Part shown: piece after piece, positions 32,543 through 61,117 of the stretch
Numbering within the stretch: the stretch's first letter is position 1
How the letters are laid out: every line of letters begins with the position of its first letter
Assembly (NCBI GenBank): GCA_001000865.1
Contig: LCIE01000002.1
Coordinates: forward strand, 32,992-96,991
Source: Candidatus Collierbacteria bacterium GW2011_GWC2_44_18
GTDB taxonomy: Bacteria > Patescibacteriota > Microgenomatia > UBA1400 > MFAQ01
Length of the DNA stretch: 64,000 bases
Direction: 5' to 3'
Notes under the pieces: model-generated
Databases searched by the model: none
Told to the model about the DNA's origin: nothing
What the model saw: the letters and a program-made list of their open reading frames with translations, nothing else
Translations under genes and position numbers: made by a program

Positions 32543-32579
32543 GTCCGTCATATCCTAATTCACTTTGACAGTAGTATCG

Positions 32580-32972
32580 ATGAAGAAGTTACTCGACAGT
32601 TTCTGTGTACTGATTAAGCAAGCCATCGAAGCCGCCCAGGACCTCTGGTACGGCAAGGTTCAAGTAAAGGCCAGCCCGTTAATTGATGAAGATGTCGCTG
32701 TAGACGATGCCTTTTTCACGGTGGTTGATCGTGTTATTCTGGCCGTTGAAGAGGGTAATCTCAAACTTGACAGGTCAAAAGTGATCGATGATTGCCTGTT
32801 TTTACTATACGAATACGAAAACAAGGTTGAATTCATCGTTGTTGAACCATACGAAAAGCAAGTTTTTAATTCAACCGAACCCAACTTCACCAACTTACGG
32901 CCATCACTCGTCACAATCGAACTCAAGAGACGACTGACAGAAGTCATGAAACAATGGTTCGAAGGTATCTAA
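32580..32972 (+). CDS. hypothetical acidic protein P1 (130 aa), first gene of the rplO-secY inserted cassette
   Basis: ATG at 32580 in frame with ORF 32565..32972. Stop TAA overlaps the P2 start (TAATG). No recognisable domain. Confidence 0.55.
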   Translation: MKKLLDSFCVLIKQAIEAAQDLWYGKVQVKASPLIDEDVAVDDAFFTVVDRVILAVEEGNLKLDRSKVIDDCLFLLYEYENKVEFIVVEPYEKQVFNSTEPNFTNLRPSLVTIELKRRLTEVMKQWFEGI

Positions 32973-33331
32973 TGGAAGACCTAATTAGTTTCATCGGTGG
33001 ACAGGCTGTAGCCGAGAAATCTTCTCAATATGATTTTCTGGTCAAGTTTTTTAAACTCGTCTCGAGATGTATCAATGCCGGCGAGACCAAACTTCGCTTG
33101 GAACATTCAAAGATTAAAGATCGGGTCTTTTTCCTCAAAATGGCCGAAGGTGGATATCTGGCCATCAAGCCGGATGAGCTTAAGATCTTTGAAGCCGATG
33201 AAGATATGCAAATCCTTAAGAAGGATTTTGCACTTCCGTACGAAAATCTTATAGCTACTTACACCGAGCTTAGAGCACGATTAGTTTATCGTCTCGCAAC
33301 CACTAAACTAAGCAGACAACCGTTAGGGTAA
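32972..33331 (+). CDS. hypothetical protein P2 (119 aa), translationally coupled to P1
   Basis: ATG at 32972 overlapping the P1 stop. No recognisable domain. Confidence 0.55.
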   Translation: MEDLISFIGGQAVAEKSSQYDFLVKFFKLVSRCINAGETKLRLEHSKIKDRVFFLKMAEGGYLAIKPDELKIFEADEDMQILKKDFALPYENLIATYTELRARLVYRLATTKLSRQPLG

Positions 33332-33340
33332 AATCATTAA

Positions 33341-33372
33341 CCTATCCACCCACCCCTAACCGGGTGGTTTTT
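33341..33372 (+). terminator. intrinsic terminator after P2
   Basis: cccacccctaaccgggtggtttttt. Confidence 0.55.
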
Positions 33373-33392
33373 TGTGGCTTATACTTGAAGCA

Positions 33393-34289
33393 ATGGATTC
33401 GATCAAAAAGATTATCACCGAACTCTCTGTGTTTTCCCCTCGGCAAGGCGAAAATGAAATCAAGGCGGCCAAATATATCGAATCTTTTCTCAGTTCCCAT
33501 AACGTCGACTTTTCGGTACAAACATTTAAAACTGAGGTGTCTATCACCATAAGTGCAGAGTTATTTTTAGATGATCATCAAATTCCCTGTTTGGGTGGCT
33601 CTTTTGAGAGTGGAAAAATCACGTCCGCCTCTCAGGTTCATTTTAGTCCTTATTCTAATTATATTGAAACCATAAACTACCCCTCTGATCCCGGCGTTCA
33701 TATTTCTAGAGCCAACAAATCATTATTAGAAAAGGCGGTTAAAATTTCCGGTGAGGTTATGGTCGAAGAGTTTTTCTTCCTCTCAAAAAACATTTTAGTG
33801 GGGAACGCGGTAAACCCCGAAAAAATAGTTTTCGCTCATTACGATTCACTTGGCGGTGGGGCTCTCGATAACGCCGGCAGTGTCGCCATCTGTCTAAATC
33901 TCTTAACTGAGAACCGTGATTTGATATCTGAGAACTTATTCGTTTTTGTCGGTAATGAAGAACTTTCCTACGACTCCCCCGAATATTGGGGCAAGGGTTA
34001 TCGCGAGTTTGAAAAACAATATCTGGATTTACTGAACTTCGCTAAAGAAATAATTGTCGTCGATGGGGTTGGCGTCACCACACCACAGACAATCACTGAG
34101 AACATAGAGGACGCCTTTCCCGTTCGGAATCTCAGCACTCTCATTTCAAAAGTTACTTGGATTTCCAGCATCCAGTCCGAAGTCCTGAAATGCTACCACT
34201 GCCTAGAAGACACCCCAGACAAATTAAACCAGGTTTTTCTCAGCCAATCCCAATCAATGATTAAACAAAAACTTCTAAACTCAGTCTGA
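33393..34289 (+). CDS. M28-family peptidase-like protein (possibly inactive variant)
   Basis: FAHYDSLGGGALDNAGSVAI resembles the M28 HxD...GAxDDxSG metal-binding motifs, with DD replaced by DN. Alternative start at 33372. Confidence 0.5.
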   Translation: MDSIKKIITELSVFSPRQGENEIKAAKYIESFLSSHNVDFSVQTFKTEVSITISAELFLDDHQIPCLGGSFESGKITSASQVHFSPYSNYIETINYPSDPGVHISRANKSLLEKAVKISGEVMVEEFFFLSKNILVGNAVNPEKIVFAHYDSLGGGALDNAGSVAICLNLLTENRDLISENLFVFVGNEELSYDSPEYWGKGYREFEKQYLDLLNFAKEIIVVDGVGVTTPQTITENIEDAFPVRNLSTLISKVTWISSIQSEVLKCYHCLEDTPDKLNQVFLSQSQSMIKQKLLNSV

Positions 34290-34312: not shown

Positions 34313-35593
34313 ATGAATAATATATTAGCTCCTTTGCGCGCCCTATTTAAGATAAAAGATCTTAGAAACAGATTGATTTTTACTGCTATTGTCATCGCCA
34401 TTTTCCGTTTGGTTGCCCACATCCCCGCGCCAGGGATCAACTTAGCCGCCCTCAAAGGACTCTTCGATTCATCTGCCTTTCTTTCTTTACTAGATGTCTT
34501 TTCCGGTGGCACTCTGACAAATTTTTCCGTCATGGCCCTTGGTCTCAATCCTTACATCAACGCCTCCATTATTATGCAGATGCTCGGCATGGTAGTTCCC
34601 AAGCTGGAAGAGCTTCAGAAGGAAGGCGACTACGGTCGCCAAAAAATCAATCAATACACTCGTCTTCTTACTATTCCACTTTGTTTCTTTCAGGGTATCG
34701 CTTTGATCATGCTTCTCCGGGGACAAGGACTTACTACTACTGCTGATCCGCTAAAGTTGGCTTCTATTGTTTTCACTCTTGCCGCCGGCACTTCTTTTTT
34801 AATCTGGCTCGGTGAACAATTAAATGAATACGGCGTTGGCAACGGTATTAGTTTAATAATCTTCGTTGGTATCGTCACTAGACTACCGGTCGCCGCCGCT
34901 CAAGTTCTTACCACTATCGATCCTTCCCAGATATTTACTTATTTAATCTTTGGTTTTTTTGCGGCCGCCTCTGTCTACGCTATCGTCCGAGTTGGGGAAG
35001 CCGTTCGGGAAGTTCCGATTCAATCAGCCAGACGCGGGGCTTCCTTCACTTCTGTCGTTGGCAATCACCTACCACTTCGTCTCAATCAGGCTGGCGTCAT
35101 CCCGATTATCTTTGCCGTTTCTTTCATGTTGATTCCTAACCTTTTAAGCCGTGTCTTTTCTGGTTCCAGCCAACCAGTTCTTGCTCAAATCTCCAGAAAT
35201 GTTGGGCTTTTCTTGGCACCTAATACGGTTCTTTATAATGTTCTTTATTTTGTCTTGGTTGTCGCTTTTTGTTATTTCTATACTGCAGTTGTTTTTAATC
35301 CGGAAAAAATTGCCAAAGATCTTCGCTCTTCCGGCTCCTTCATTCCCGGTGTTCGCCCGGGTCCCAACACAGTTGATTATCTCAACTTTGTTTTAAACAG
35401 AATTACTTTGGTAGGAGCCTCTTTCCTAGGTCTTGTCGCCATCTTCCCCTCCATTATTTCCGGAGTTACCGGCATCACCTCCATCGCCATAGGAGGAACG
35501 GGTATCTTAATTGTCGTTTCTGTTGTTTTGGAAATTCTTAAGACAATCAACTCTCAGCTCTACATGTACAGTTACGACAAATTTCTAGACTAA
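34313..35593 (+). CDS. secY: preprotein translocase subunit SecY
   Basis: 426 aa, 10 TM helices, spc-operon position. Confidence 0.93.
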
Positions 35594-35645: not shown

Positions 35646-36206
35646 ATGAACCTCATTATTCTCGGACCACAAGGCTCAGGCAAAGGTACTCAAGCCAAGT
35701 TACTTGCCGAAAAGTTCGGATATGTTCATGTGTCATCCGGATCTCGCCTTCGTGAATTCGCCAAGAACGGAACCCCCAAAGGAGATTTAATCGCTGATCT
35801 CCTAACTACGGGGGAACTCATGCCCTTTGATACGGTCATGGAAGTTATCGAGCCGGATCTTCTGGGTGCCAAGCACGGTTTTATCTTAGACGGTACCCCT
35901 AGAAACTTAATGCAAGCAGAGTATTTGGAATGGTTTCTAAAAGAGCGTGGTCTTTCCATAGATAAGGTAATCCTTCTAAACATTCCGCGAGAAGTCAGTC
36001 TTGACCGTTTGCAAAAACGCGCCAAAATCGAGAATCGTTCCGACGATACTCCGGAAGCCATTCACGCAAGATTGGACATTTATGACAACGAGACCATTCC
36101 TGTCATCGAATATTTTCGCAAACAGGACAAGCTAATCGAAGTCGACGGCACTCCCGATATCCAAACAATCTTTTTGGACATCGTCTCAAAGCTAGAAAAC
36201 AAATAG
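35646..36206 (+). CDS. adk: adenylate kinase (short, lid-less type)
   Basis: MNLIILGPQGSGKGTQA P-loop. 186 aa. Confidence 0.93.
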   Translation: MNLIILGPQGSGKGTQAKLLAEKFGYVHVSSGSRLREFAKNGTPKGDLIADLLTTGELMPFDTVMEVIEPDLLGAKHGFILDGTPRNLMQAEYLEWFLKERGLSIDKVILLNIPREVSLDRLQKRAKIENRSDDTPEAIHARLDIYDNETIPVIEYFRKQDKLIEVDGTPDIQTIFLDIVSKLENK

Positions 36207-36250: not shown

Positions 36251-36324
36251 CCACGGCTGAGATTACAGAAAAGGAGTGTGATATAATACCCTATATAGTC
36301 TTGTAATTTGATAAAGGAGCTAAC

Positions 36325-36687
36325 ATGTTTTTACAGATTCTCTACGCGTCTGATCGTAAGGTTGAAGCTGAAGAGTTTTTAAAGAATCTTATTCAACGGT
36401 CATTTTCTTGTATGATGTTGGGGGAAGAAGATACCCCACCGTTGGGAATAAGCAAACCTGTAGTTTTGGTCCTCATTAGCCCAGGACTTCTGGGGAGCGA
36501 GTATCTGAAAGGACTGATGGATTTGGCAATTATGTGTGATTGCTTTATGCCTATTATCATCGGGCAGCCAGAAGCAGAACTACCGCTCAGGGTCAAGATC
36601 TATTCTGTAATTAACTTAAACCATCCCTACACTCGTGCCGCCGAGTTTGAGCGTCTCGTCCGGTCAATTATGCATAAGTACCTCTAA
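36325..36687 (+). CDS. TIR-like (flavodoxin-fold) small protein, paralog 1 (120 aa)
   Basis: ILYASDRKVEAEEFLKNL resembles the TIR N-terminal FISYSxxD...A..L motif, and VVLVLISPGLLGSEYLKGLMDLAI resembles the TIR vvVlSpnY.S.WC.El segment. RBS AAAGGAG. Own terminator. Confidence 0.45.
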   Translation: MFLQILYASDRKVEAEEFLKNLIQRSFSCMMLGEEDTPPLGISKPVVLVLISPGLLGSEYLKGLMDLAIMCDCFMPIIIGQPEAELPLRVKIYSVINLNHPYTRAAEFERLVRSIMHKYL

Positions 36688-36709
36688 GCCTCCGGAAGGG
36701 GGCTTTTTT
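36687..36709 (+). terminator. intrinsic terminator
   Basis: gcctccggaagggggctttttt. Confidence 0.55.
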
Positions 36710-36748
36710 ATGTCTACAAGTTTCGCACTTACACCGTACCTAACAGAT

Positions 36749-36800
36749 GTCATGCCGGACCTGATAGGGCCGCTGGTCCCCGAAGGGGGAAATCCATCCC
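36749..36800. repeat. Family-A long variant (GTCATGCCGGACCTGATAGGGCCGCTGGTCCCCGAAGGGGGAAATCCATCC)
   Basis: Near-identical copy inside the CapA-fusion CDS at 52438-52493. Confidence 0.8.
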
Positions 36801-36834
36801 ATCACTCCGAATAAATAAATGTAAAATATACCCA

Positions 36835-37569
36835 ATGACAAAATACCAAGCCATGACCGAAGGGGGCAAGAAACTCGGCCACATCAAAGGCCTCTTGGCT
36901 GGCATGGTCAAAGAGGGTGTTACGCCTCTGGAAATCGATGCTCAGGTAGAAAAACTGATTAAGGAAGGGGGCGACAAGCCGAACTTCAAAATGGAGCCAG
37001 GTTACCACCACTCCACCTGCATCAACGTTAACCAAGGCATTGTCCACGGCATACCTGGCGATATTCCTTTCAAAGCAGGAGACGTAGTCAAAATAGACAT
37101 GGGCCTCTTCCACGAAGGCTATCACCTGGATACTTCTATTACTGTAGCTATTCCACCGGTTTCTCACTCCGTGGCCAAATTCCTAGAGGTCTGTCAGAGC
37201 TCGCTCGACGCCGCCATTTTCGAGGCCATTCCCGGGCATACCGTTTACGATATCAGCTTAGCTATGCAAACCGTGGTGGAGACAGCCGGGTACAACGTCA
37301 TCCGGGATCTCACCGGGCACGGAATAGGAAGGAAGCTCCACATGGAGCCATATATTCCTTGTTTTGCCGACAATAAGAGTAAGAAGTTTGTCCTTTCTGT
37401 CGACCAGACGGTCGCCATCGAGGCCATGGTCGCCATAGGGGATTGGCACTTGGTCGAGGACCCGGACGGTTGGACTCTTTCCACTCAGGACGGTTCTATT
37501 ACGGCTATGATCGAAGAAACCGTTTACATCACCCCCGAAGGCCCCAAAATCCTCACAGGCATTAATTAA
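36835..37569 (+). CDS. map: methionine aminopeptidase type I
   Basis: Pita-bread fold motifs (HGIPGDIPFKAGDVVKIDMG, HGIGRKLHMEP). Confidence 0.92.
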   Translation: MTKYQAMTEGGKKLGHIKGLLAGMVKEGVTPLEIDAQVEKLIKEGGDKPNFKMEPGYHHSTCINVNQGIVHGIPGDIPFKAGDVVKIDMGLFHEGYHLDTSITVAIPPVSHSVAKFLEVCQSSLDAAIFEAIPGHTVYDISLAMQTVVETAGYNVIRDLTGHGIGRKLHMEPYIPCFADNKSKKFVLSVDQTVAIEAMVAIGDWHLVEDPDGWTLSTQDGSITAMIEETVYITPEGPKILTGIN

Positions 37570-37659
37570 TTACCCCACCCACTCGTTTCTCTCGTTTCCC
37601 TCTCCTTCAGAAGGAGAGAGTGTCGAATTATTGAGACCGGTGGGGTAAGTCAACACACA

Positions 37660-37694
37660 AAAAACCCGCTTCTCCTGTGAGAAGCGGGTTTTAT
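37660..37694. terminator. bidirectional intrinsic terminator
   Basis: aaaaacccgcttctcctgtgagaagcgggtttta. Confidence 0.65.
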
Positions 37695-37695
37695 A

Positions 37696-37827
37696 CTAGG
37701 GGGCTAGAAAAGCTCGTAAAAGCTCCCCCAACCCTATCAAGCCCGTGCTGGCACAAAAACACCCAATCGCCAGCAGGAACAAAATAAACAAGACCACGAT
37801 TTTCCACAGGGGCATGGTTTTAAACAT
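37696..37827 (-). CDS. possible small hydrophobic peptide (43 aa)
   Basis: GGAGG RBS 4-5 nt before ATG. Peptide MFKTMPLWKIVVLFILFLLAIGCFCASTGLIGLGELLRAFLAP. Below the ORF-track size cutoff. Confidence 0.3.
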   Translation of the reverse strand: MFKTMPLWKIVVLFILFLLAIGCFCASTGLIGLGELLRAFLAP

Positions 37828-37981
37828 TTTTCCTCCAGAACATAAATTTTACGTGCTTAGATAACCCATATATTAGCACAAACCCCTCATTTTGTCAAGA
37901 CTATGGGGTAGCGTTACGTCACAATTCAATTCCATTATGCTAAAATACCCCATATTCTGCTTTTTAAAATTGGAGGTATTC

Positions 37982-38452
37982 ATGGCCAGTCTTATTATTC
38001 TTCACGCAACGGATGCTTCCGACGAAGCTGAGGGGCTTCAAACGCAGTTGTCAGGAGAAGGTATTACTGCGATGACTTTTTCGGAGGTTTTGCTCGAAGG
38101 CCCACTCAATATTGCCGAGCTAGTCGCCTCTTCAGCCGGCGTCATTTTTATTTTGACAAATGGTTTACTGAACGACATGGTTTGTCTAACTATGGCCAAG
38201 CAAGCCATGAAAGCTCAAAAGGGCTTGCCTGTGATTTTCGAGGACATCACCACTCCTGCTTGGTCCGGTCGACCATTCAGGTTAATGCCCAGTGATATGT
38301 ACGAAGTTGAATGGGGTTTCTTCGTAACCCAAATCCGTAGCTACATCAGCTTCGCGGAACTGTGTCGTTCCATTGATGATTCCATGGTAACCGAAACCGC
38401 GGAAGAAGTTTTATCGGAAGAAGGGATCGAATCTGGACCCGAAGTAGTTTAA
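37982..38452 (+). CDS. TIR-like (flavodoxin-fold) small protein, paralog 2 (156 aa)
   Basis: GGAGG RBS. ILHATDASDEAEGLQTQL parallels paralog 1 (ILYASDRKVEAEEFLKNL). Own terminator. Confidence 0.45.
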   Translation: MASLIILHATDASDEAEGLQTQLSGEGITAMTFSEVLLEGPLNIAELVASSAGVIFILTNGLLNDMVCLTMAKQAMKAQKGLPVIFEDITTPAWSGRPFRLMPSDMYEVEWGFFVTQIRSYISFAELCRSIDDSMVTETAEEVLSEEGIESGPEVV

Positions 38453-38460
38453 GTTCAAGT

Positions 38461-38482
38461 CCCCGTAAGGGGACTTTTATAG
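38461..38482 (+). terminator. intrinsic terminator
   Basis: agtccccgtaaggggactttt. Confidence 0.6.
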
Positions 38483-42925: not shown

Positions 42926-43920
42926 ACAATAGACTTGTCGCAAAATAAGCAACATCACCTCCCCCTCCCCAGATATCAGGTTAACAAGTGTCTTTGGTAA
43001 TTGGTCGGGTAAAGTTGTAGAGGGCATATCTGTCGGCAAGAATATGGAAGTGTTTGAGTGCTCCAATGACATGTTCTACTCGTACTCTGATTGAGGATAT
43101 GGTTTGATTGGTTAGCTTGTCCATCTCAGGAAGTTCTTTCTTGTATGGTTTCTTGATTGGAAGAATCACCTTAGAGTGTGAACTTGATTCTTGTAGTCCT
43201 ACGTATCCTAAGTCAGCCAGACAAGTGGCTCCGGGCGGAGCCCGGAGAACTGTGCCATCATCCACGCACAACTGTTTGTCATGTCGTTTTCCCTCCACTG
43301 TTTGGGAGACAGCCAAAATTCTTTTGGTGTGTGGGTGGATGATGATTTGATTCTTGATCGTATGTTTCTTCTTTTTACCAGAGTAATAGAACTCTTGATT
43401 TTTCTTTGGTCTTTGTACTGCTCTCTCGGTGGCATCAATGATGAACTCAGAGAGATCAGGACAGATCTCGAGCATTCCCGCCATGGTACGGATCTTTCTT
43501 TTAGGTAGCCTAAGTTCATATCCTAGTGTTAACCAAAGCACTTCCTCCATAAATACCTTCCATCGATGGATAGTTTCCTTGTCTACCTCGAAGATTGTTT
43601 GAGCCAGGCGGAAAGTGGGATATGTTTTGTAGTAAAACAAGATGAAGAGTAATCTCTCTGAAGAAGTTCGGAGTACCGACCTTCTTCCTGCTCCCATTCC
43701 TCTGTCTCTGTCCCATCTCCACAGTTTGTGGTGTCGACTCTGTCGAAATCGAATATCAAAAAGTGGTAACAGTTTGTTAAACTTTTCCTGACTCATTCCA
43801 ATTACCGCTGGAAAAAGATCAGGATGTTTGAGAAGATAGAGTAGATTCATGGGCAGGAACTTACTAATATGGGGTCCTGCCCATAATCTTATCAGAGCTA
43901 ATTATGCGACAAGTCTAATA
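42926..43920 (-). mobile_element. IS5-family insertion sequence (~1.0 kb) with terminal inverted repeats
   Basis: Left end aatagacttgtcgcaaaat (42928-42942). Right end reverse complement attagacttgtcgcataat (43905-43917). A single DDE transposase ORF fills the interior. Confidence 0.7.
42981..43850 (-). CDS. IS5/IS4-superfamily DDE transposase (289 aa)
   Basis: N-terminal HTH region. KKKHTIKNQIII and DLGYVG motifs are typical of DDE_Tnp_1-type transposases. Confidence 0.75.
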   Translation of the reverse strand: MNLLYLLKHPDLFPAVIGMSQEKFNKLLPLFDIRFRQSRHHKLWRWDRDRGMGAGRRSVLRTSSERLLFILFYYKTYPTFRLAQTIFEVDKETIHRWKVFMEEVLWLTLGYELRLPKRKIRTMAGMLEICPDLSEFIIDATERAVQRPKKNQEFYYSGKKKKHTIKNQIIIHPHTKRILAVSQTVEGKRHDKQLCVDDGTVLRAPPGATCLADLGYVGLQESSSHSKVILPIKKPYKKELPEMDKLTNQTISSIRVRVEHVIGALKHFHILADRYALYNFTRPITKDTC

Positions 43921-43940
43921 GAAGGGGGACATCCAAGTAT

Positions 43941-43981
43941 TTCTGGATTCCGAGTCGCACTACGCTTGCCCGGAATGACAA
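43941..43981 (-). repeat. Family-A element in inverted orientation
   Basis: Reverse complement of ttctggattccgagtcgcactacgcttgcccggaatgacaa gives ttgtcattccgggcaagcg...ggaatccagaa. Confidence 0.65.
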
Positions 43982-49200: not shown

Positions 49201-51530
49201 GAATCTATCGTTCCTTGGGCGACGATATTATTGCTTCATACCAATCTCATCAATATCCTCTGGATAGTTCCGGGGCTGAAGGTGGTGGTTGTTTCTTGGC
49301 GGGTACACAGATATTGATGGAAGACGGAAAAACAAAAGAAATTCAGGATATAAAGGTGGGAGATATAGTCAAGTCATTTCTAAGTCCTCTGTCGAGGAAA
49401 ATAGCAACTGCCAAAGTTTCCAAAGTTTTCACGCATCAGGTAGTAGGTTATTTGGTAATTAACAATCACCTAAGAGTCACCGGAGAACACAATTTATATA
49501 TCAATGGTCGGTTCATGACCGCCTCTGAGGTAAAAGTTGGGGATTTCTATCTTGATACTCATGGGGAGTACCAAAAGATATTCTCCATCGAAAGTCGATC
49601 TGGAATAAATACGGTCTACAATTTCACGGTAGAAAAATTAAACACATACTTCGCCGAAGGATTTTATGTCCACAACGAGAAGGGTCGCGAATTATTCGTG
49701 GACAATGCTTTTTTCAGCAGTGTCCGTACCGGTAGTGATGGCCGTGCCAGCGTTGATGTTAAGCTTCCGGATAATCTTACCTCTTGGAAAATTACCTCCC
49801 AAGGAGTTACTGCCGATCTGAAAGCAGGTGTCGACTCTTCTCTTCTGGTTGTTAAACAACCCTTCTTCGTAGATGTAGTCATGAACACTGAGTATCTGGT
49901 TGGCGAACGACCGGAAGTTTCGGTTCGTGCCTATGGTGAAGGACTATCCACTGGGGACCAAGTAATCCTAAAAATTCAATCTGATACTTTAGGAATAGAT
50001 AAAAGTCTTAACATAAAAGCCTTTGAAAGTTCTAAAGTGGATCTTGGTGTCCTCAAAGAAGGCTCCCACAAAATTACCATTTCGGGTATTTCCGGTAGTC
50101 TTACGGATAAGTTAATCAGAAAAATGAATGTAGTCAAGTCTCGCCTCAAAGCAGTCAAATCGGTCAGTGTTTCTTTGGCAGAAGGTACCAAGCCGGAAGG
50201 TTCGCCAGATTCGTCAACGACCTTAATCTTTTCCGACCAAAGCCTCGGTCGTTATTTCCCACCCCTTTCAAACCTGGCTTACACTTGGGGGGATCGCTCA
50301 GATCAGCGTCTAGCCCGCCATCTTTCGCAGTCTATCATCAAGAAGCTTTTCGACGATTCTATCAGTCCGGAAACACTCGACCTCACCGCCTTTCAAACTC
50401 CGGATGGTGGTTATGCACTCTTTCCCTACTCTGGAGCAGACCTGGAGCTCTCTGCCTTCGTAGCGTCCTTGGCAAAAGAAAAGGTTGATCTCATTGGTTT
50501 GGGAAACTATTTTTACAAAGAATTTTCCCAATCAAAAGACCTCGACACTGCCTCCATGTCGCTTTTTGGACTGGCAAGTTTAGACGAACCGGTACTACTA
50601 TTAATAAACAATCTTTCGGGCGAAAAAGATCTCAGCCCCTTGTCCAGAATCTACTTGGCTTTGGCTCAAGCCAAGATCGGGGATACCGAAATGGCCCGCA
50701 TTTTCTACAAGACTCTCATGTCGGAGTTTTCCGAAAAACAAGATTCATTAATCTTGATGAAAGTCGGATCAGACAAAGATAGTTATCTCCAGGCCACTTC
50801 ACTTACTTCTGCTCTTTCCTCCTTGTTGGGTGAGCCGGAAGCTGACAGTCTGCTTTCTTACACCCTGGCTAATAGCGCGAAAGACATCTTACTAGTTGCT
50901 CCTCAGATGATGGCCATTTCCTATCAGATCGAAAATATTAAACCCCAACCGGTCTCTTTTTCATACACTCTAAATGGCAAAAAGATACCCAAAAAACTTG
51001 AAAAGGGTCAAGTTTTCAAGCTTGAGTTATCGTCCACTGATCTATCCGGAATAAGTTTTTCCGATCTTGTTGGCAATGTCGGTTTGTCTTCAACTTTCGC
51101 GGTTCCTCTGGATCCAAAAACTGCCCCCATAAGTTCGTCGGTTCAGTTAGGTCGGAGTTACTCTGTTCGTGGTGCTATCACCAACACTTTCTCCACCAGC
51201 GATCTTGTCAAAATTTCACTTCCAGTTGCCTATGCGGATATCTCTCAAGACGGTTGTTACCAAGTCTCGGATCTACTTCCTTCGGGGTTGAGACCGATCA
51301 CTTCGATTTATAGTTTCGGGCTGGATTCCACAAAGACTTGGTATCCATACGAGATAAATGGCCAAAAGGTTAGTTTCTGTGTAGGAAATGGAAGTAAAGA
51401 AAAAACCATCAACTACTATGCGAGGGTCGTCTCCGGTGGCGACTTCAAAGCCGAAAGTGCCTTGATTCAATCCTTAATTTCACCTTCAGTCTTCAACCTT
51501 TCTCCCTCCGGCTCGGTCATTATCAAATGA
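46272..51530 (+). CDS. alpha-2-macroglobulin-family surface protein (1752 aa), thioester-less, with a Hint/BIL domain in place of the bait region
   Basis: N-terminal signal-anchor helix and repeated MG-type beta-sandwich domains (e.g. LVQITDLSAYLTVSGTKTLVWVNDIGTGQPVSGASV). The post-bait A2M block FVDNAFFSSVRTGSDGRASVDVKLPDNLTSWKI...LVVKQPFFVDVVMNTEYLVGE aligns with human A2M [32 protein letters not shown]...[21 protein letters not shown] (recalled from memory). No CxEQ thioester at the expected position (LAYTWGDRSDQ instead). Confidence 0.7.
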   Translation: MTSPYPVIKLKSSMGKIKTFLGSLRPWQLVGILLVSLGLLASVILASQYLQLSAKLKLGSDAGLLLTADRQDSLGTFQDSTFTLKSDQDLTVAGLKNSVTFFPEIDFDIREISPRQFSISPKAPLKNNSLYRVKVVSDQKTFSWAFQTKNDFRVVQTLPRDQATYVPINSGIEITFSHDNWDDISLKDGNFEITPFAEGRFERHKRTISFIPEGLVPNTLYTVKIKKGLKLKGTNEVLKDDFVYRFETQSSSGDKTQINFSRSFYEFSPPETPAFDIYTSSTGVGEASVKVYQYPNVQDFTSDFTTKLAIPAWATNSLRLNRRPVSGLNKVLDFPASIQKQSYTNYFLLPQTLPKGFYLIEATIDNITTQALVQITDLSAYLTVSGTKTLVWVNDIGTGQPVSGASVSFAGKGQETGQDGVAYFDTPTEKITENSNLIGVSHGSNALYLPVQNVRYYYDADYQNSRRVADKYWNYFYTDRPVYLPTDILKFWGLLRDRDNLNQNQKFTLEVTRSDYTSWDFHPMVLFTKDFETSDLGTFIGDIPLASYNPGWYGISLKINGTIVSSSSFSIETYTKPAYKLTLTPSKKAAIVGEIISFSGEATFFEGSPVVGMDLKVTGAQNSNFTTDSLGRFNFNYLVSKNSYNYLPEYRNFVVLPTLPEEGMIQVNSSIAVFDSSLVLGYSKTESKNSTGKVEIDLRQVDTGKFTQSSDIQDIFAPASNRLVTGTLVENQWNRREVGTYYDFINKVTSPKYAYDRVQTKIADISLTTDSKGKAVYEFPVGENKSYDILLYATDDQGRTTSQNVYLTGSVNNAELNNYVYLKTDKEGQNSSRYAIGESVNLTLMRGELPLESSGNDKFLYLFSQRGLNSYQLASDGKISFKYPTAFVPNVFVRAVRFTGKTYQVSENLYLYFDTTSKKLSLGITQDKPSYLPGDTAKLSVLVKDQTGSGVSSEVNLSLTDEAYNALNSTFVDPLSGIYRSLGDDIIASYQSHQYPLDSSGAEGGGCFLAGTQILMEDGKTKEIQDIKVGDIVKSFLSPLSRKIATAKVSKVFTHQVVGYLVINNHLRVTGEHNLYINGRFMTASEVKVGDFYLDTHGEYQKIFSIESRSGINTVYNFTVEKLNTYFAEGFYVHNEKGRELFVDNAFFSSVRTGSDGRASVDVKLPDNLTSWKITSQGVTADLKAGVDSSLLVVKQPFFVDVVMNTEYLVGERPEVSVRAYGEGLSTGDQVILKIQSDTLGIDKSLNIKAFESSKVDLGVLKEGSHKITISGISGSLTDKLIRKMNVVKSRLKAVKSVSVSLAEGTKPEGSPDSSTTLIFSDQSLGRYFPPLSNLAYTWGDRSDQRLARHLSQSIIKKLFDDSISPETLDLTAFQTPDGGYALFPYSGADLELSAFVASLAKEKVDLIGLGNYFYKEFSQSKDLDTASMSLFGLASLDEPVLLLINNLSGEKDLSPLSRIYLALAQAKIGDTEMARIFYKTLMSEFSEKQDSLILMKVGSDKDSYLQATSLTSALSSLLGEPEADSLLSYTLANSAKDILLVAPQMMAISYQIENIKPQPVSFSYTLNGKKIPKKLEKGQVFKLELSSTDLSGISFSDLVGNVGLSSTFAVPLDPKTAPISSSVQLGRSYSVRGAITNTFSTSDLVKISLPVAYADISQDGCYQVSDLLPSGLRPITSIYSFGLDSTKTWYPYEINGQKVSFCVGNGSKEKTINYYARVVSGGDFKAESALIQSLISPSVFNLSPSGSVIIK
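49290..49676 (+). other. Hint (bacterial intein-like, BIL-type) domain embedded in the A2M-family protein
   Basis: Begins GGG-CFLAGTQILMEDGK (block A). Has the TxxH block B (RVTGEHNL). Ends NTVYNFTVEKLNTYFAEGFYVHN (blocks F/G). The residue after the terminal Asn is Glu, not Cys/Ser/Thr. About 129 aa with no homing endonuclease. Confidence 0.75.
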
Positions 51531-53341
51531 AACTCTGGCAGTTATTTATTGGTTTTCTACCGATTATCGTCATTGCGACCTGCCTGCCGGCAGGCAGGGT
51601 TTTACTCGAACCGAAGCAATCTCCGAGCTTGAACCCTACACCTATTCGTGGGGTTAACCAACCCTTTGACACCTCCTTCGCTTATGATAATCGCACTTTT
51701 CTACCTGCCGTCGCTCAAAATACTGGCGTTGGTAACGGAACCTCTCCTAGGGTGGTTGTTCTCCCTCATCACCTGACCGCTTCTACCCTGATTGCTCAAG
51801 GCTTGTCGCTTTTAAAAACACCTCCACCCAAAACTATTGTTCTTTTATCTCCCAATCATGCCAACACCGGACAGTGCGCTATAGTTTCCTCCAAAAATAA
51901 TTGGGATACCCCATTTGGTCAGGTCCTAGTCGATCAATATCTATTGAATGATTTTCTGGACACCAAAACCATCTGTTTGGATGACTCGGCTGTGGCTATA
52001 GAACATGGTCTTGCCGGATTGGTTCCCTTCATCAAATATTATCTCCCGAATACAAAAATTGTTCCTTTTGCCCTTAAAAATGACCTCGATCCAATATTGT
52101 TAAATAATTTTACTCAAAAATTAGTTTCACTTTCTACAAAAACCGTTATCTTAGGCTCAATAGACTTTTCCCATGGTCTGTCCAAAAGTGAATCGACCAA
52201 AAAAGACGCTGTCACCGAGAAGTTACTATTGACCTTTAACTATCCGGAACTTCTCAAACTTTCATCCGAGTATCTCGACTCTCCGGTTTCTTTGGTCGCC
52301 ATTCTCAAAATTCTAGACTCGGAAAAAACCAAACCGAACATTCTAGCCCACAGTGACTCATCGGTTTTCAATAACCAACCAATGAACGTCACTTCATATT
52401 TTTTGATCTCCGGCGGCAGTAGTTCATCATCGACCATTCGTCATCCCGGACTTGATAGGGCCGTTGGTCCCCGAAGGGGGAGATCCATCCCCTCTGGAAA
52501 TTCCTTCACTCTCCTCTTCGGCGGTGACGTCATGCTTGGTCGCTCCGTCAATACCAGAATGATAAAGTACCAAGATTTCTTATGGCCATTCCAAAAAATA
52601 TCAGCTCTTCTTTCTTCTGCGGACTTATCTATTATCAATCTCGAGTCGCCTTTCCGTTCTGGTTGCCGACCGACCGATGGTGGTATGGTTTTTTGCGCCG
52701 ATCCTCGATCAGTCGAAGGTTTGGTTACGGCCGGCATCGATGTTGTTAATATCGCCAATAATCACATTTTCAATCAAGGCCAGGAGGGCATAGATGAAAC
52801 CATCGCCATATTAAATAATAACAACATTGCTTTCGTAGGGGCGGACCCCCGCGTCCGCCCGACAAACGACCCCCGCGTCGATCCGCAAAAATCGACATTC
52901 ACTCTCAAAAATACCAAAATCACTTTCTTGGGCTTTACCGACATTGCCTCCGTTTCCCAAGAAATTGCGACCGCCACTCCAGACAATATTAGAGCTCAAA
53001 TATCTGCCGCAAAAAAAGATTCCGATTTGGTTATCGCTACTTTCCACTGGGGCAATGAATATAGTCATCGGTCACTTCATCAGGTGGAACTCGCTCATCT
53101 AGCCGTTGATTCTGGTGCCGATGTCGTCATCGGCCACCACCCGCACTGGGTCCAGGAAGTAGAAACCTATTTGGGTAAACCCATTTACTATTCTCTGGGA
53201 AATTTAGTTTTCGATCAAATGTGGTCAGAAGAAACCAGGACAGGTCTAGTAGTCAAGTTAAACTTCTCTGGCAGTACCCTAATCAGTCAAGAACAAATTC
53301 CTATAAAAATTTTCGACTATGGTCAGCCAGCTACTCTATAA
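51527..53341 (+). CDS. fusion protein: MEMO1/AmmeMemoRadiSam-B-like domain plus CapA/PgsA-type metallophosphatase domain (604 aa), carrying three in-frame repeat insertions
   Basis: MEMO-like motifs LPHHLTAS, SPNHANTG, EHGLAGLVPFIKYY, SIDFSHG. CapA-like motifs LLFGGDVMLGRSV, NLESPF, NIANNHIFNQGQEG, TFHWGNEY, VVIGHHPHWVQE. ATGA overlap with the A2M gene stop. Repeat copies at 51568-51598, 52438-52493 and 52834-52861 are read in-frame. Confidence 0.65.
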   Translation: MKLWQLFIGFLPIIVIATCLPAGRVLLEPKQSPSLNPTPIRGVNQPFDTSFAYDNRTFLPAVAQNTGVGNGTSPRVVVLPHHLTASTLIAQGLSLLKTPPPKTIVLLSPNHANTGQCAIVSSKNNWDTPFGQVLVDQYLLNDFLDTKTICLDDSAVAIEHGLAGLVPFIKYYLPNTKIVPFALKNDLDPILLNNFTQKLVSLSTKTVILGSIDFSHGLSKSESTKKDAVTEKLLLTFNYPELLKLSSEYLDSPVSLVAILKILDSEKTKPNILAHSDSSVFNNQPMNVTSYFLISGGSSSSSTIRHPGLDRAVGPRRGRSIPSGNSFTLLFGGDVMLGRSVNTRMIKYQDFLWPFQKISALLSSADLSIINLESPFRSGCRPTDGGMVFCADPRSVEGLVTAGIDVVNIANNHIFNQGQEGIDETIAILNNNNIAFVGADPRVRPTNDPRVDPQKSTFTLKNTKITFLGFTDIASVSQEIATATPDNIRAQISAAKKDSDLVIATFHWGNEYSHRSLHQVELAHLAVDSGADVVIGHHPHWVQEVETYLGKPIYYSLGNLVFDQMWSEETRTGLVVKLNFSGSTLISQEQIPIKIFDYGQPATL

Positions 53342-60019: not shown

Positions 60020-61117
60020 ATGAAAAATATTTTAGTCATCTGTGGACCAACTGCCTCCGGCAAAACCTCTCTCGCCCTTTCCGTTGCTAAAGAATTAACC
60101 GAACGTCATTCCGGGCTCGGCCCGGCCGCTGGTACCCGAAGGGGTAAATCCACCATTCCGTCATTGCGAGGGCAACCTGCCTGCCGTAGGTCGAAGATAT
60201 CGTGTATTTCACGATCAGGTCTCACTCCATCAGGATCAGTCAACATCCTCTCCGCCGACTCCAGACAGATATACCAGGGTCTGGACATCGTCACCGGCAA
60301 GGACATTCCTGCAGATCTCCCTCCAAACATTAGTTTTTTTGGTTTGGATTTGGTCGAGCCAAACCAAGCCTACAATCTCGCGGACTTCGTCAGTTATTCA
60401 CAGAAAATTATTCAAAGCTCCATTAAAGAGAATGTCCCCTTAATCATTGTTGGGGGAACCGGTTTGTATCTGAAAGCTATTACTTCAGATCTTCTCAACG
60501 TCCACGTTCCTCCGAATATTGATCTTCGTCGTGATCTAGAGAGGTTAGACCTTAAGACTTTGCAGTCTCGTCTCTTGGAATTAAATCCCAATAAACTCGC
60601 CTCCCTAAACAACTCAGATCTCCACAATCCCCGCCGTCTCATCCGCGCCATCGAAATATCATCGTCATTGCGCGATTCGACTTCCATAGATACCCCTTTA
60701 GAGGGTACGAACCAAAGCAATCCATCCTCTCTGGATCGCCACGCTTCGCTCACGATGACAGATATTTCTTTTCTCTGGATCGGACTACATCAAGACAAAG
60801 AGATTCAAAAGGCAAAAATTCGCCAAAGGGTTTTAGATCGTCTAGACTACGGCGCCATTGAAGAGGTTGAAAACTTGATGATAAAGTATCCCAACCACCG
60901 CCCCCCCATTTTTACCAGTCTTGGTGTCCAAGAAACCAGCAAGTTCTTGCACCAAGAAATCACTCGAGAAACACTTATCCATTTATGGACTGCCTCCGAA
61001 ATAGCTTATGCCCGGAGACAGATGGTCTGGTTCAAGAAACAACCCGGTATAGTTTGGTATGATAAAAGTACGATAGACAGCCACCTAATCGCTAAGCTGA
61101 CAGAAATATATAAATAA
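60020..61117 (+). CDS. miaA: tRNA dimethylallyltransferase carrying in-frame insertions of four Family-A repeat copies
   Basis: P-loop ICGPTASGKTSLAL, SADSRQIYQGLDIVTGK and RRLIRAIE motifs. Extra segments RHSGLGPAAGTRRGKSTIPSLRGQPACRRSKISCISRSGLTP (60104-60232) and SSLRDSTSIDTPLEGTNQSNPSSLDRHASLTM (60663-60760) are encoded by repeat copies. Confidence 0.85.
   Translation: MKNILVICGPTASGKTSLALSVAKELTERHSGLGPAAGTRRGKSTIPSLRGQPACRRSKISCISRSGLTPSGSVNILSADSRQIYQGLDIVTGKDIPADLPPNISFFGLDLVEPNQAYNLADFVSYSQKIIQSSIKENVPLIIVGGTGLYLKAITSDLLNVHVPPNIDLRRDLERLDLKTLQSRLLELNPNKLASLNNSDLHNPRRLIRAIEISSSLRDSTSIDTPLEGTNQSNPSSLDRHASLTMTDISFLWIGLHQDKEIQKAKIRQRVLDRLDYGAIEEVENLMIKYPNHRPPIFTSLGVQETSKFLHQEITRETLIHLWTASEIAYARRQMVWFKKQPGIVWYDKSTIDSHLIAKLTEIYK
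60104..60232. repeat. two tandem Family-A elements inside miaA, read in-frame
   Basis: gtcattccgggctcggcccggccgctggtacccgaaggggtaaatccacc followed by gtcattgcgagggcaacctgcctgccgtaggtcgaagatatcgtgtatttcacgatcaggtctcactcc. Confidence 0.85.
60663..60760. repeat. two Family-A elements in opposite orientations inside miaA, read in-frame
   Basis: gtcattgcgcgattcgacttcc...ggtacgaaccaaagcaatcc, then the reverse complement of gtcatcgtgagcgaagcgtggcgatccagagagg. Confidence 0.8.

What the first reader, a model, noticed from the sequence alone, without database searches (positions are those of the whole stretch)
36325..38452. Two paralogous TIR-like small proteins bracket map inside the ribosomal superoperon
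The ORFs at 36325-36687 and 37982-38452 share an N-terminal signature (ILYASDRKVEAEEFLKNL and ILHATDASDEAEGLQTQL) and a later hydrophobic strand, both resembling the TIR/flavodoxin-like fold. Each has its own RBS and terminator. Stand-alone TIR proteins act as NADase or signalling components of antiphage systems such as Thoeris, and no partner effector is visible nearby. An antisense 43-aa hydrophobic peptide ORF with a GGAGG RBS lies between map and paralog 2. The TIR call itself is low-confidence (0.45).
Basis: inference. Interest (0 to 1): 0.55.

Follow-up and report, generated by a model that had tools for sequence, protein, structure and literature searches.

The report
Glutamate-less TIR-fold paralogs flanking map
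Two small genes on either side of the methionine aminopeptidase gene of a Collierbacteria (CPR) genome are real, distantly related TIR-fold proteins from a fast-evolving lineage-specific family, but they lack the catalytic glutamate and the partner genes of known TIR antiphage systems, so they probably act as non-enzymatic assembly modules.

Summary
ORF1 (36325-36687) and ORF2 (37982-38452) are real genes under purifying selection, each with its own RBS and terminator. Direct ORF1-ORF2 similarity is marginal, but homology is firm through a family of about 40 small proteins.

The TIR call holds at family level. The family profile hits TIR domains in the PDB (E 1.7e-7). The ORF2 AlphaFold model matches almost only TIR structures. 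ORF1 is a TIR by sequence homology only: it has lost the alphaB segment and models poorly.

The NADase/Thoeris reading is not supported. The residue aligned with SARM1 E642 is hydrophobic in all 41 aligned members (ORF2 M71, ORF1 L64). No PADLOC model matches, and no ThsA-like partner was recognised within about 14 kb.

The family usually sits at the map flank of Collierbacteria ribosomal superoperons, as one to three tandem copies, and is absent at that site in nine of 16 related genomes checked. It evolves about ten times faster than its neighbours.

The antisense 43-aa membrane peptide is a real gene, with a homolog at the same position in a divergent genome.

Best reading: a new Glu-less stand-alone TIR subfamily. 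The scaffold mechanism is inferred.

The parts
36279..36287 (+). Extended -10 promoter element (TGATATAAT) upstream of ORF1
   Evidence: Read directly from the sequence. It was not listed by the consensus scan, which requires a -35 hexamer.
36325..36687 (+). ORF1: 120-aa TIR-family protein with the alphaB segment deleted and Leu64 at the catalytic-Glu position
   Evidence: It is 100% identical to NCBI hypothetical protein UW41_C0002G0077 of a Collierbacteria MAG.
36686..36711 (+). Intrinsic terminator of ORF1 (8-bp stem, GGAA loop, T6)
36749..36800 (.). Copy of a dispersed repeat of about 50 nt in the ORF1-map spacer (other copies at 52440-52491 and 60124-60152). Assemblies of the same population break here.
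36835..37569 (+). map (methionine aminopeptidase), the anchor gene that the family flanks
   Evidence: Pfam Peptidase_M24 E 1.1e-34
37661..37692 (.). 14-bp bidirectional terminator shared by map (+) and the antisense peptide gene (-)
   Evidence: z -6.6 and -6.8
37696..37827 (-). 43-aa single-pass membrane peptide gene (MFKTM...GCFC...LR), divergent from ORF2. RBS GGAGG at 37832-37836. Promoter-like site at 37898-37870.
   Evidence: The L040 homolog has the same architecture.
37918..37946 (+). Promoter-like site of ORF2 (GTCACA-17-TAAAAT with TG)
   Evidence: This is a consensus match only.
37982..38452 (+). ORF2: 156-aa TIR-fold protein (subfamily A) with Met71 at the catalytic-Glu position and an acidic, disordered C-terminal tail
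38457..38481 (+). Intrinsic terminator of ORF2 (8-bp stem plus UUUUA)
   Evidence: -14.3 kcal/mol, z -3.0

Best explanation
ORF1 and ORF2 are two anciently diverged members of a Collierbacteria-centred family of stand-alone TIR-fold proteins of about 120-160 aa. In most loci examined the family occupies the flanks of map in the ribosomal superoperon. Copy number there is 0-3, usually tandem between map and infA, and in this genome one copy lies on each side of map.

Shown here:
- Both are real genes.
- ORF2 has the TIR fold. ORF1 is a TIR by sequence homology only.
- The two are homologous to each other.
- The catalytic glutamate is absent across the family.
- No known defence partner was recognised nearby.
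- The family diverges fast and recombines at the locus.
- ORF2-type genes recur next to divergently transcribed small membrane-protein genes.

Inferred:
- Because all examined prokaryotic TIR NADases need that glutamate, these proteins most likely do not cleave NAD+.
- They probably act as TIR-TIR assembly, adaptor or decoy modules, in the way animal adaptor TIRs and Glu-less plant sensor TIRs do.
- They would form homo- or hetero-oligomers among paralogs in a rapidly evolving accessory function, likely conflict- or symbiosis-related.
For: **TIR identity**
- Family profile against PDB sequences: TRR-2 TIR E 1.7e-7, full length, with TRAM, BCAP and MAL next.
- ORF2 AF2 model pLDDT 80.8, pTM 0.73. 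Foldseek PDB top hits are TIR domains (TRR-2, TLR15, TLR10, TRAM, TIR-STING, MAL, SARM1, SPARTA).
- P0009 scores 28.9 bits against a TIR_2 gathering score of 28, and the multi-TIR_2 hits score E 1e-65 to 1e-175.

**Homology of ORF1 and ORF2:**

**Glutamate absent**
- SARM1 E642 aligns with the Glu of FVRRE in canonical TIR_2 protein P0070.
- That Glu aligns with a gapless hydrophobic column in all 41 family members, ORF2 M71 and ORF1 L64.
- All examined prokaryotic TIRs require this Glu for NADase activity, and Glu-less plant TIRs are sensor-type partners (PMC7282519).

**Real genes:**

**Position**
- map-TIR-infA in L002, L016, L017 and L035-L037.
- Two tandem copies in L004, L005, L007 and L038-L040.
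- Three tandem copies in L025/26 and L027/28.
- All 6 loci fetched context-blind from metagenomes show this layout.

**Fast evolution:** against L002, ORF2 dN is 0.38 and Map dN is 0.04. Divergence is incongruent: L002 has Map 92% and ORF2 54%, while L017 has Map 75% and ORF2 69-75%.

**No defence signature:**

**Small membrane genes:**
Against: - No biochemical or interaction data exist, so the scaffold mechanism is purely an inference from the missing Glu and from the nearest structural relatives.
- A one-residue register shift cannot be excluded without coordinates. Subfamily B (not in this window) keeps a Glu one residue before the canonical position, so some paralogs might be enzymes.
- ORF1's fold is not confirmed structurally.
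- The family is not confined to the map locus. P0029 (L023) lies elsewhere, and P0044 (L024, a 543-nt contig) shows no recognisable map or infA flank.
- Only 8-10 kb loci were inspected, so partner genes elsewhere in these genomes cannot be ruled out.
Confidence: 0.6

Rival explanations
1. They are enzymatic TIR sensors or NADases of an antiphage system (Thoeris-like or a new type). They would make a nucleotide signal for an effector encoded elsewhere, or deplete NAD+ themselves.
For: - TIR fold.
- Rapid diversification, copy-number variation and presence/absence polymorphism typical of defence genes.
- Own promoters and terminators.
- Subfamily B paralogs in other genomes carry a Glu adjacent to the canonical position.
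Against: - The canonical catalytic Glu is replaced by Met or Leu in both window proteins and by hydrophobic residues in all 41 members.
- No PADLOC or ThsB_TIR match.
- No effector recognised within about 14 kb.
- No relatives on IMG/VR viral contigs.
- The usual position is inside a housekeeping operon, not a defence island.
Confidence: 0.12
2. They are accessory factors of the translation or protein-maturation machinery. A TIR-like fold would serve as a binding module for Map, IF-1 or the ribosome, which would explain the fixed position next to map and infA.
For: - Most loci examined place the family next to map, co-directional with it.
- In several relatives the genes follow map after 22-136 nt and could be co-transcribed.
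Against: - The family is absent from this site in 9 of 16 Collierbacteria loci, including one with 93% identical Map.
- Copy number is 0-3, and dN is about 10 times that of map, secY and infA.
- The window has independent promoters and terminators.
- A housekeeping partner would be expected to be conserved and single-copy.
Confidence: 0.13
3. ORF2-type TIR proteins form a two-part module with the divergently transcribed small membrane protein. The peptide would be a membrane-damaging effector or toxin and the TIR protein its regulator or sensor.
For: - An antisense small membrane-protein gene with a strong RBS occurs in the map-to-TIR spacer in the five distinct loci where that spacer is 340 nt or longer and is followed by an ORF2-type gene (W, L040, L002, L038, L007). 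The long spacers of L003 and L006 hold unrelated plus-strand genes instead.
- The W and L040 peptides are homologous, although their TIR genes are only 39% identical.
- The 87-aa proteins of L038 and L007 are alike by eye, with a shared C-terminal motif.
Against: - The membrane proteins fall into at least three unrelated sequence types.
- L017 and L035, the closest ORF2 orthologs, and many tandem arrays have none.
- The same spacer elsewhere holds unrelated cargo, a secreted 154-161-aa protein in L003 and a Zn-ribbon protein in L006.
- Hot-spot coincidence is therefore a simpler reading.
Confidence: 0.12
4. They are not TIR proteins but another flavodoxin-like fold (a receiver-like or SIS-like domain) with an unrelated role.
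Against: - Family-level sequence evidence is TIR-specific.
- ORF2's confident model matches TIRs almost exclusively.
- ORF1's model has low confidence because of the alphaB deletion.
- No Pfam receiver hit appears in any member.
Confidence: 0.03

Closest known systems
Pfam TIR_2 (PF13676) bacterial TIR domains, including multi-TIR_2/WD40 proteins
   Same: - Same domain family by profile. P0009 passes the gathering score over profile positions 1-121 of 122.
- The family profile retrieves multi-TIR_2 proteins at E 1e-10 to 1e-4.
- Same betaA motif, xSP motif after betaC and hydrophobic-PV betaD.
   Different: - Stand-alone single domains of 120-160 aa.
- The S..W..rE catalytic Glu is replaced by a hydrophobic residue throughout.
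- Most members, including ORF1 and ORF2, fall below the Pfam threshold.
Metazoan scaffold TIR domains (Hydra TRR-2, TLR10/TLR15, TRAM/TICAM-2, MAL)
   Same: - Best sequence-profile and structural matches.
- They also lack the catalytic Glu and act by TIR-TIR assembly (PMC7282519).
- TRAM shares the ILHAEDD-type betaA motif (alignment).
   Different: - Bacterial (CPR) origin.
- No receptor ectodomain, death domain or other partner domain.
- No evidence of oligomerisation.
- Similarity may reflect convergent loss of the active site rather than close kinship.
Thoeris ThsB (TIR sensor) with ThsA
   Same: Small stand-alone bacterial TIR-fold proteins, sometimes in several tandem, divergent copies.
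   Different: - ThsB needs its catalytic Glu and an adjacent ThsA effector (PMC7282519).
- Here there is no Glu, no ThsB_TIR or PADLOC hit and no ThsA-like gene nearby.
Plant sensor/executor TIR pairs (RRS1/RPS4)
   Same: Genomically paired divergent TIR paralogs in which one lacks the catalytic Glu (PMC7282519). RPS4 and RRS1 TIRs are among the Foldseek hits. Tandem A-B and C-B pairs occur in L004, L005, L007 and L038-L040.
   Different: - No NLR context.
- In this window neither copy has a Glu, and the two copies are separated by map.
- The analogy is conceptual only.

Membership tests
TIR domain superfamily (Pfam TIR_2, PF13676) | The individual protein reaches the Pfam gathering score (28 bits) | tested here: not met
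   ORF2 scores 13.7 bits (E 0.089) over profile positions 3-98 of 122. ORF1 has no hit.
TIR domain superfamily (Pfam TIR_2, PF13676) | The family-level profile specifically retrieves bona fide TIR domains, and close relatives pass the Pfam threshold | tested here: met
   - Profile A1 against PDB sequences: TRR-2 TIR E 1.7e-7, then TRAM, BCAP and MAL.
- P0009 (ORF1 subfamily) scores 28.9 bits, and P0029 carries a precomputed TIR_2 hit.
- The exhaustive HMMER search links the family to multi-TIR_2 proteins.
TIR domain superfamily (Pfam TIR_2, PF13676) | TIR three-dimensional fold (parallel beta-sheet with alphaA-alphaE), closest to solved TIR structures | tested here: met
   This applies to ORF2. 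Its model has pLDDT 80.8, and 49 of the 50 best Foldseek PDB matches are TIR domains.
TIR domain superfamily (Pfam TIR_2, PF13676) | The same fold criterion applied to ORF1 | tested here: inconclusive
Enzymatic TIR NADases (SARM1, AbTir, ThsB, SPARTA type) | Catalytic glutamate at the SARM1 E642-equivalent position at the start of alphaC | tested here: not met
   E642 aligns with the Glu of P0070. That Glu aligns with ORF1 L64 and ORF2 M71, and with a hydrophobic column in all 41 members. This is a sequence-alignment test. Structural superposition was not possible.
Thoeris (ThsA plus ThsB) | A ThsB-type TIR model match, and an adjacent ThsA (SIR2 or Macro/SLOG) effector | tested here: not met
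   No PADLOC or ThsB_TIR hit. Genes within about 14 kb, read by eye from ORF translations, are ribosomal proteins, EF-G/EF-Tu, secY, adk, an M28-like peptidase, two small unknowns and a transposase-like ORF.
Scaffold or adaptor (non-enzymatic) TIR domains | Signalling through TIR-TIR homo- or hetero-oligomerisation without catalysis | not testable with these tools
   Only indirect support exists: the missing Glu and the nearest matches being scaffold TIRs. No multimer prediction or assay was available.
CheY-like receiver domains | Response_reg profile match and the acidic phospho-acceptor pocket | tested here: not met

The most novel reading that the evidence does not exclude
A CPR-specific, non-enzymatic TIR system. 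Tandem, rapidly diversifying Glu-less TIR paralogs would hetero-oligomerise. Together with the divergently transcribed small membrane peptides, they would form a minimal conflict module (abortive infection, or interference with a host bacterium's TIR immunity by an episymbiont). The module would be hard-wired into the map-infA junction of the translation superoperon.
Probability: 0.12. Interest if true: 0.75.

Novelty: new variant of a known kind. Interest (0 to 1): 0.45.

Why it matters
Bacterial TIR proteins are currently understood almost entirely as NAD+-consuming enzymes of defence systems or as secreted virulence factors. A whole bacterial family of stand-alone TIR domains that has replaced the catalytic glutamate would be a prokaryotic counterpart of animal scaffold TIRs. 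This family is under purifying selection yet diverges fast, and it expands in tandem inside the ribosomal superoperon of reduced-genome CPR bacteria. It offers a handle on lineage-specific biology of Collierbacteria, whose small genomes leave little room for dispensable genes.

The practical value today is modest. It gives a family-level annotation to proteins that carry no curated Pfam, NCBIfam or PADLOC hit, and it shows that a defence or NADase label would be premature.

Tried and rejected
- **Direct pairwise comparison of ORF1 and ORF2:** too weak to decide. It was replaced by leave-one-subfamily-out profiles.
- **Word-indexed homolog searches with single proteins:** only 2 relatives each. 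The alignment query added 3. The exhaustive HMMER search was needed to find the family.
- **Libraries with no hits:** NCBIfam and PADLOC gave nothing meaningful. Rfam over 30-45 kb had no relevant RNA. Pfam gave nothing for the small membrane proteins.
- **afdb50 fold library:** unavailable.
- **Related-locus scans:** Subfamily A patterns worked for metagenomes and found nothing on viral contigs.
- **Literature:** no paper links TIR domains with Collierbacteria or with CPR/Patescibacteria in this sense.
- **Idea rejected, dispersed repeats or an IS flanking both genes as a mobile cassette:** only the ORF1-map spacer carries a dispersed repeat, and one population variant has an IS30-like gene next to ORF1.
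- **Idea rejected, the family is exclusive to the map locus:** P0029 (L023) lies elsewhere, and P0044 (L024, a 543-nt contig) shows no map flank.
- **dS limits:** dS is saturated for most ortholog pairs, so only the inequality pN far below pS is used there.
Full report
**1. What is there**

The window comes from a Candidatus Collierbacteria (CPR/Microgenomates) genome. ORF1 is 100% identical to NCBI hypothetical protein UW41_C0002G0077 of a Collierbacteria MAG.

Reading the ORF translations by eye, apart from the Pfam calls for map and the peptidase, the region is the ribosomal superoperon: fusA, tuf, rpsJ...rplO, two small unknown ORFs, an M28-like peptidase, secY (34313-35593), adk (35646-36206), ORF1 (36325-36687), map (36835-37569), an antisense 43-aa ORF (37696-37827, minus strand), ORF2 (37982-38452), infA, rpmJ, rpsM, rpsK, rpsD, rpoA, rplQ, rplM and rpsI.

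- **ORF1** has an extended -10 (TGATATAAT, 36279-36287), an AAGGAG RBS and a hairpin plus T6 terminator.
- **ORF2** starts at the ATG at 37982, as its homologs do. It has a GGAGG RBS, a promoter-like site and a GC hairpin plus UUUUA terminator.
- **map** and the antisense ORF share a 14-bp bidirectional terminator with z about -6.7.

**2. Are they real genes and are they paralogs?**

Both are under purifying selection. ORF1 versus its 78%-identical ortholog gives dN 0.12, dS 0.53 and a ratio of 0.23. ORF2 versus the L017 ortholog gives pN 0.19 against pS 0.69.

Direct BLASTP between the two is marginal, at 11/32 identities and E 0.005. I fetched 15 Collierbacteria loci with Map as the query. 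The adk-map and map-infA gaps of the closer relatives hold one or two small ORFs beginning ILILHAxD..EAEEL. These align with ORF1 and ORF2 over their whole length.

- A profile built without the ORF2 subfamily scores ORF2 at 44.6 bits.
- ORF1 against the full-length relative P0009 gives E 7e-22.

They are therefore true but ancient paralogs, about 22-24% identical and in different subfamilies. Relative to every other member, ORF1 and its ortholog P0004 have lost about 12-13 residues corresponding to the alphaB segment.

**3. Fold**

Individually, ORF2 gives only a sub-threshold Pfam TIR_2 hit (E 0.089) and ORF1 gives none. At family level the assignment is clear.

- The 13-sequence profile searched against all PDB sequences returns TIR domains at the top: Hydra TRR-2 at E 1.7e-7 (full length), then TRAM, BCAP and MAL.
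- An exhaustive HMMER search of 1.84 billion representatives finds only 77 proteins at E 1e-3 or better. About 40 are small stand-alone proteins. The rest are mostly large proteins with several matched stretches. Those tested carry 3-7 Pfam TIR_2 domains at E 1e-65 to 1e-175, two of them with WD40.
- P0009, from the ORF1 subfamily, passes the TIR_2 gathering score over the whole profile.
- The AlphaFold2 model of ORF2 (pLDDT 80.8, pTM 0.73) matches TIR structures in 49 of the 50 best Foldseek PDB hits. These include TRR-2, TLR15, TLR10, TRAM, TIR-STING, MAL, SARM1, SPARTA, RPS4/RRS1 and BtpA.

**4. The catalytic glutamate**

P0070, a canonical TIR_2 protein found by the family profile, aligns with human SARM1 so that its FVRRE glutamate matches E642 in WVHKE. 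In the full-length SARM1 chains the matched stretch is chain residues 563-668, and counting along the aligned SARM1 sequence places that Glu at 642.

In the family-to-canonical HMM alignments and in MAFFT alignments, this glutamate falls in a gapless column. That column is I, M, L, W, T or V in all 41 family members. It is L64 in ORF1 and M71 in ORF2. Neither window protein has an acidic residue at plus or minus 1.

Subfamily B, which is absent from this window, has a conserved Glu one residue earlier.

All examined prokaryotic TIR NADases require the canonical glutamate, and Thoeris ThsB requires it for protection. Glu-less plant TIRs are sensor-type partners of catalytic TIRs (PMC7282519). 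The enzymatic signature is therefore tested and not met. The caveat is that I could not superpose coordinates.

**5. Context and evolution**

In most loci examined the family sits next to map.

| Layout | Loci |
|---|---|
| map-TIR-infA | L002, L016, L017, L035-L037 |
| Two tandem copies | L004, L005, L007, L038-L040 |
| Three tandem copies, all family members | L025/26, L027/28 |
| adk-TIR-map | Only this genome's ORF1 lineage and a divergent member in L003 |

All six loci retrieved context-blind from metagenomes with subfamily-A peptide patterns are map-TIR(s)-infA. Among the protein-based look-ups, P0029 lies elsewhere, and P0044's 543-nt contig shows no recognisable map or infA flank.

Nine of 16 Collierbacteria loci have adk-map-infA with no family member at the site, including one whose Map is 93% identical.

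The family evolves about ten times faster than its neighbours. Against L002, dN is 0.38 for ORF2 and 0.04 for Map. Divergence is also incongruent: L002 has Map 92% and ORF2 54%, while L017 has Map 75% and ORF2 69-75%. This points to recombination within the locus.

The spacers are unstable. A dispersed repeat of about 50 nt lies between ORF1 and map, and assemblies break there. One population variant has an IS30-like transposase directly upstream of ORF1.

No family member was found on IMG/VR viral contigs. No PADLOC or NCBIfam model matches. No SIR2, Macro or SLOG-type gene was recognised within about 14 kb.

**6. The antisense peptide**

The 43-aa ORF encodes a single-pass membrane peptide. 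A 412-nt random spacer gives an ATG ORF of this length in 40% of simulations, but with an SD-like 4-mer in only 2.5%.

L040 carries a 41-aa homolog (MFKNM...GCVC...LR, 14/38 identical, E 2e-6 pairwise, E 0.0013 among 2074 small ORFs). The L040 TIR gene is only 39% identical to ORF2. The homolog has the same position and orientation, and the same promoter-RBS-ORF-terminator layout.

In the five distinct loci where the map-to-TIR spacer is 340 nt or longer and is followed by an ORF2-type gene, it contains an antisense small membrane-protein gene with a GGAGG-type RBS. L039 is a near-duplicate of L007, and the long spacers of L003 and L006 hold unrelated plus-strand genes instead. The antisense genes are:

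- 43 and 41 aa in the window and L040
- 50 aa in L002
- 87-aa proteins with a shared C-terminal motif in L038 and L007

The closest ORF2 orthologs (L017, L035) have none. None of these proteins matches a Pfam family. The peptide gene is real. Whether it is functionally tied to the TIR gene or is co-resident hot-spot cargo remains open.

**7. Interpretation**

The shown facts are these. The family is a divergent, Collierbacteria-centred, stand-alone TIR_2-type family. The canonical catalytic Glu is lost family-wide. The genes are under purifying selection but diverge fast. Copy number at the map flank is 0-3. No known defence partner was recognised nearby.

The inferred mechanism is non-enzymatic TIR-TIR assembly, acting as an adaptor, regulator or decoy, possibly between paralogs. 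The animal adaptor TIRs that are its nearest matches work this way, as do Glu-less plant sensor TIRs.

Rivals, in order of my estimate:
- A translation-linked accessory factor. The position favours this. The polymorphism and the evolutionary rate argue against it.
- An enzymatic defence TIR with a non-canonical active site or a distant partner.
- A TIR plus membrane-peptide module.
- A non-TIR fold, which is essentially excluded for ORF2.

**8. Novelty and score**

This is a TIR domain, a known kind. However, a family-wide Glu-less, stand-alone bacterial TIR family that is usually embedded in the ribosomal superoperon and expanded in tandem is not described in the literature I could search. 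It matches no curated defence or NCBI model. I rate it a new variant of a known kind.

Noticed in passing
window 36749-36800; 52440-52491; 60124-60152 (partial 43921-43981): A dispersed repeat of about 50 nt, 91-93% identical between copies. The copy in the ORF1-map spacer coincides with contig ends in several assemblies of the same population (L030, L033, L034). The 52440 copy lies inside the long ORF 51527-53341, which may therefore be two genes.
   Followed up: partly
L032:21-1028 (population variant of the window locus): An IS30-like transposase (HTH_38 plus rve) sits directly upstream of ORF1 in place of adk. Identity to the window starts at 36260.
   Followed up: partly
window 32565-34289: The rplO-secY junction also carries lineage-specific inserts: two small unknown ORFs (135 and 125 aa) and an M28-like peptidase (Pfam E 7e-6). 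A similar set (small unknown ORFs plus an M28-like peptidase) occupies the same junction in L017.
   Followed up: no
window 42981-43850 (-): A 289-aa ORF resembling a DDE transposase (assigned by eye from the translation, not profile-tested) lies immediately after rpsI at the end of the ribosomal block.
   Followed up: no
L002, L007, L017 versus the window (secY-adk-map-TIR-infA): Map itself shows mosaic divergence. It is 92% identical in L002 but 75% in L017 and L007, while SecY is 93-95% in all three. This suggests recombination breakpoints around map.
   Followed up: partly
L038:1850-2113(-), L007:5145-5408(-), L039:2568-2831(-): A conserved 87-aa membrane protein with 2-3 predicted TM segments and the C-terminal motif KAWPHxTVxxKKxGKxIYKDVKY. 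It lies antisense between map and the TIR pair and has no Pfam match.
   Followed up: partly
Subfamily B members (L004:5254-5685, L005:5262-5705, L006:5734-6222, L007:5966-6400): This subfamily keeps a Glu one residue before the canonical catalytic position. Several members (for example L004b, L006, L005b) end in a Pro-rich tail such as LFWQFPELPKPN. It is always the downstream copy of a tandem pair.
   Followed up: partly
L003:4950-5435(+), L006:4846-5247(+), L002:3664-3924(-): The same spacers in other genomes hold unrelated cargo: a 154-161-aa protein with an N-terminal signal or TM segment, a 133-aa Zn-ribbon protein and an 86-aa 2-TM protein. The map flanks therefore behave as an insertion hot spot.
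   Followed up: no
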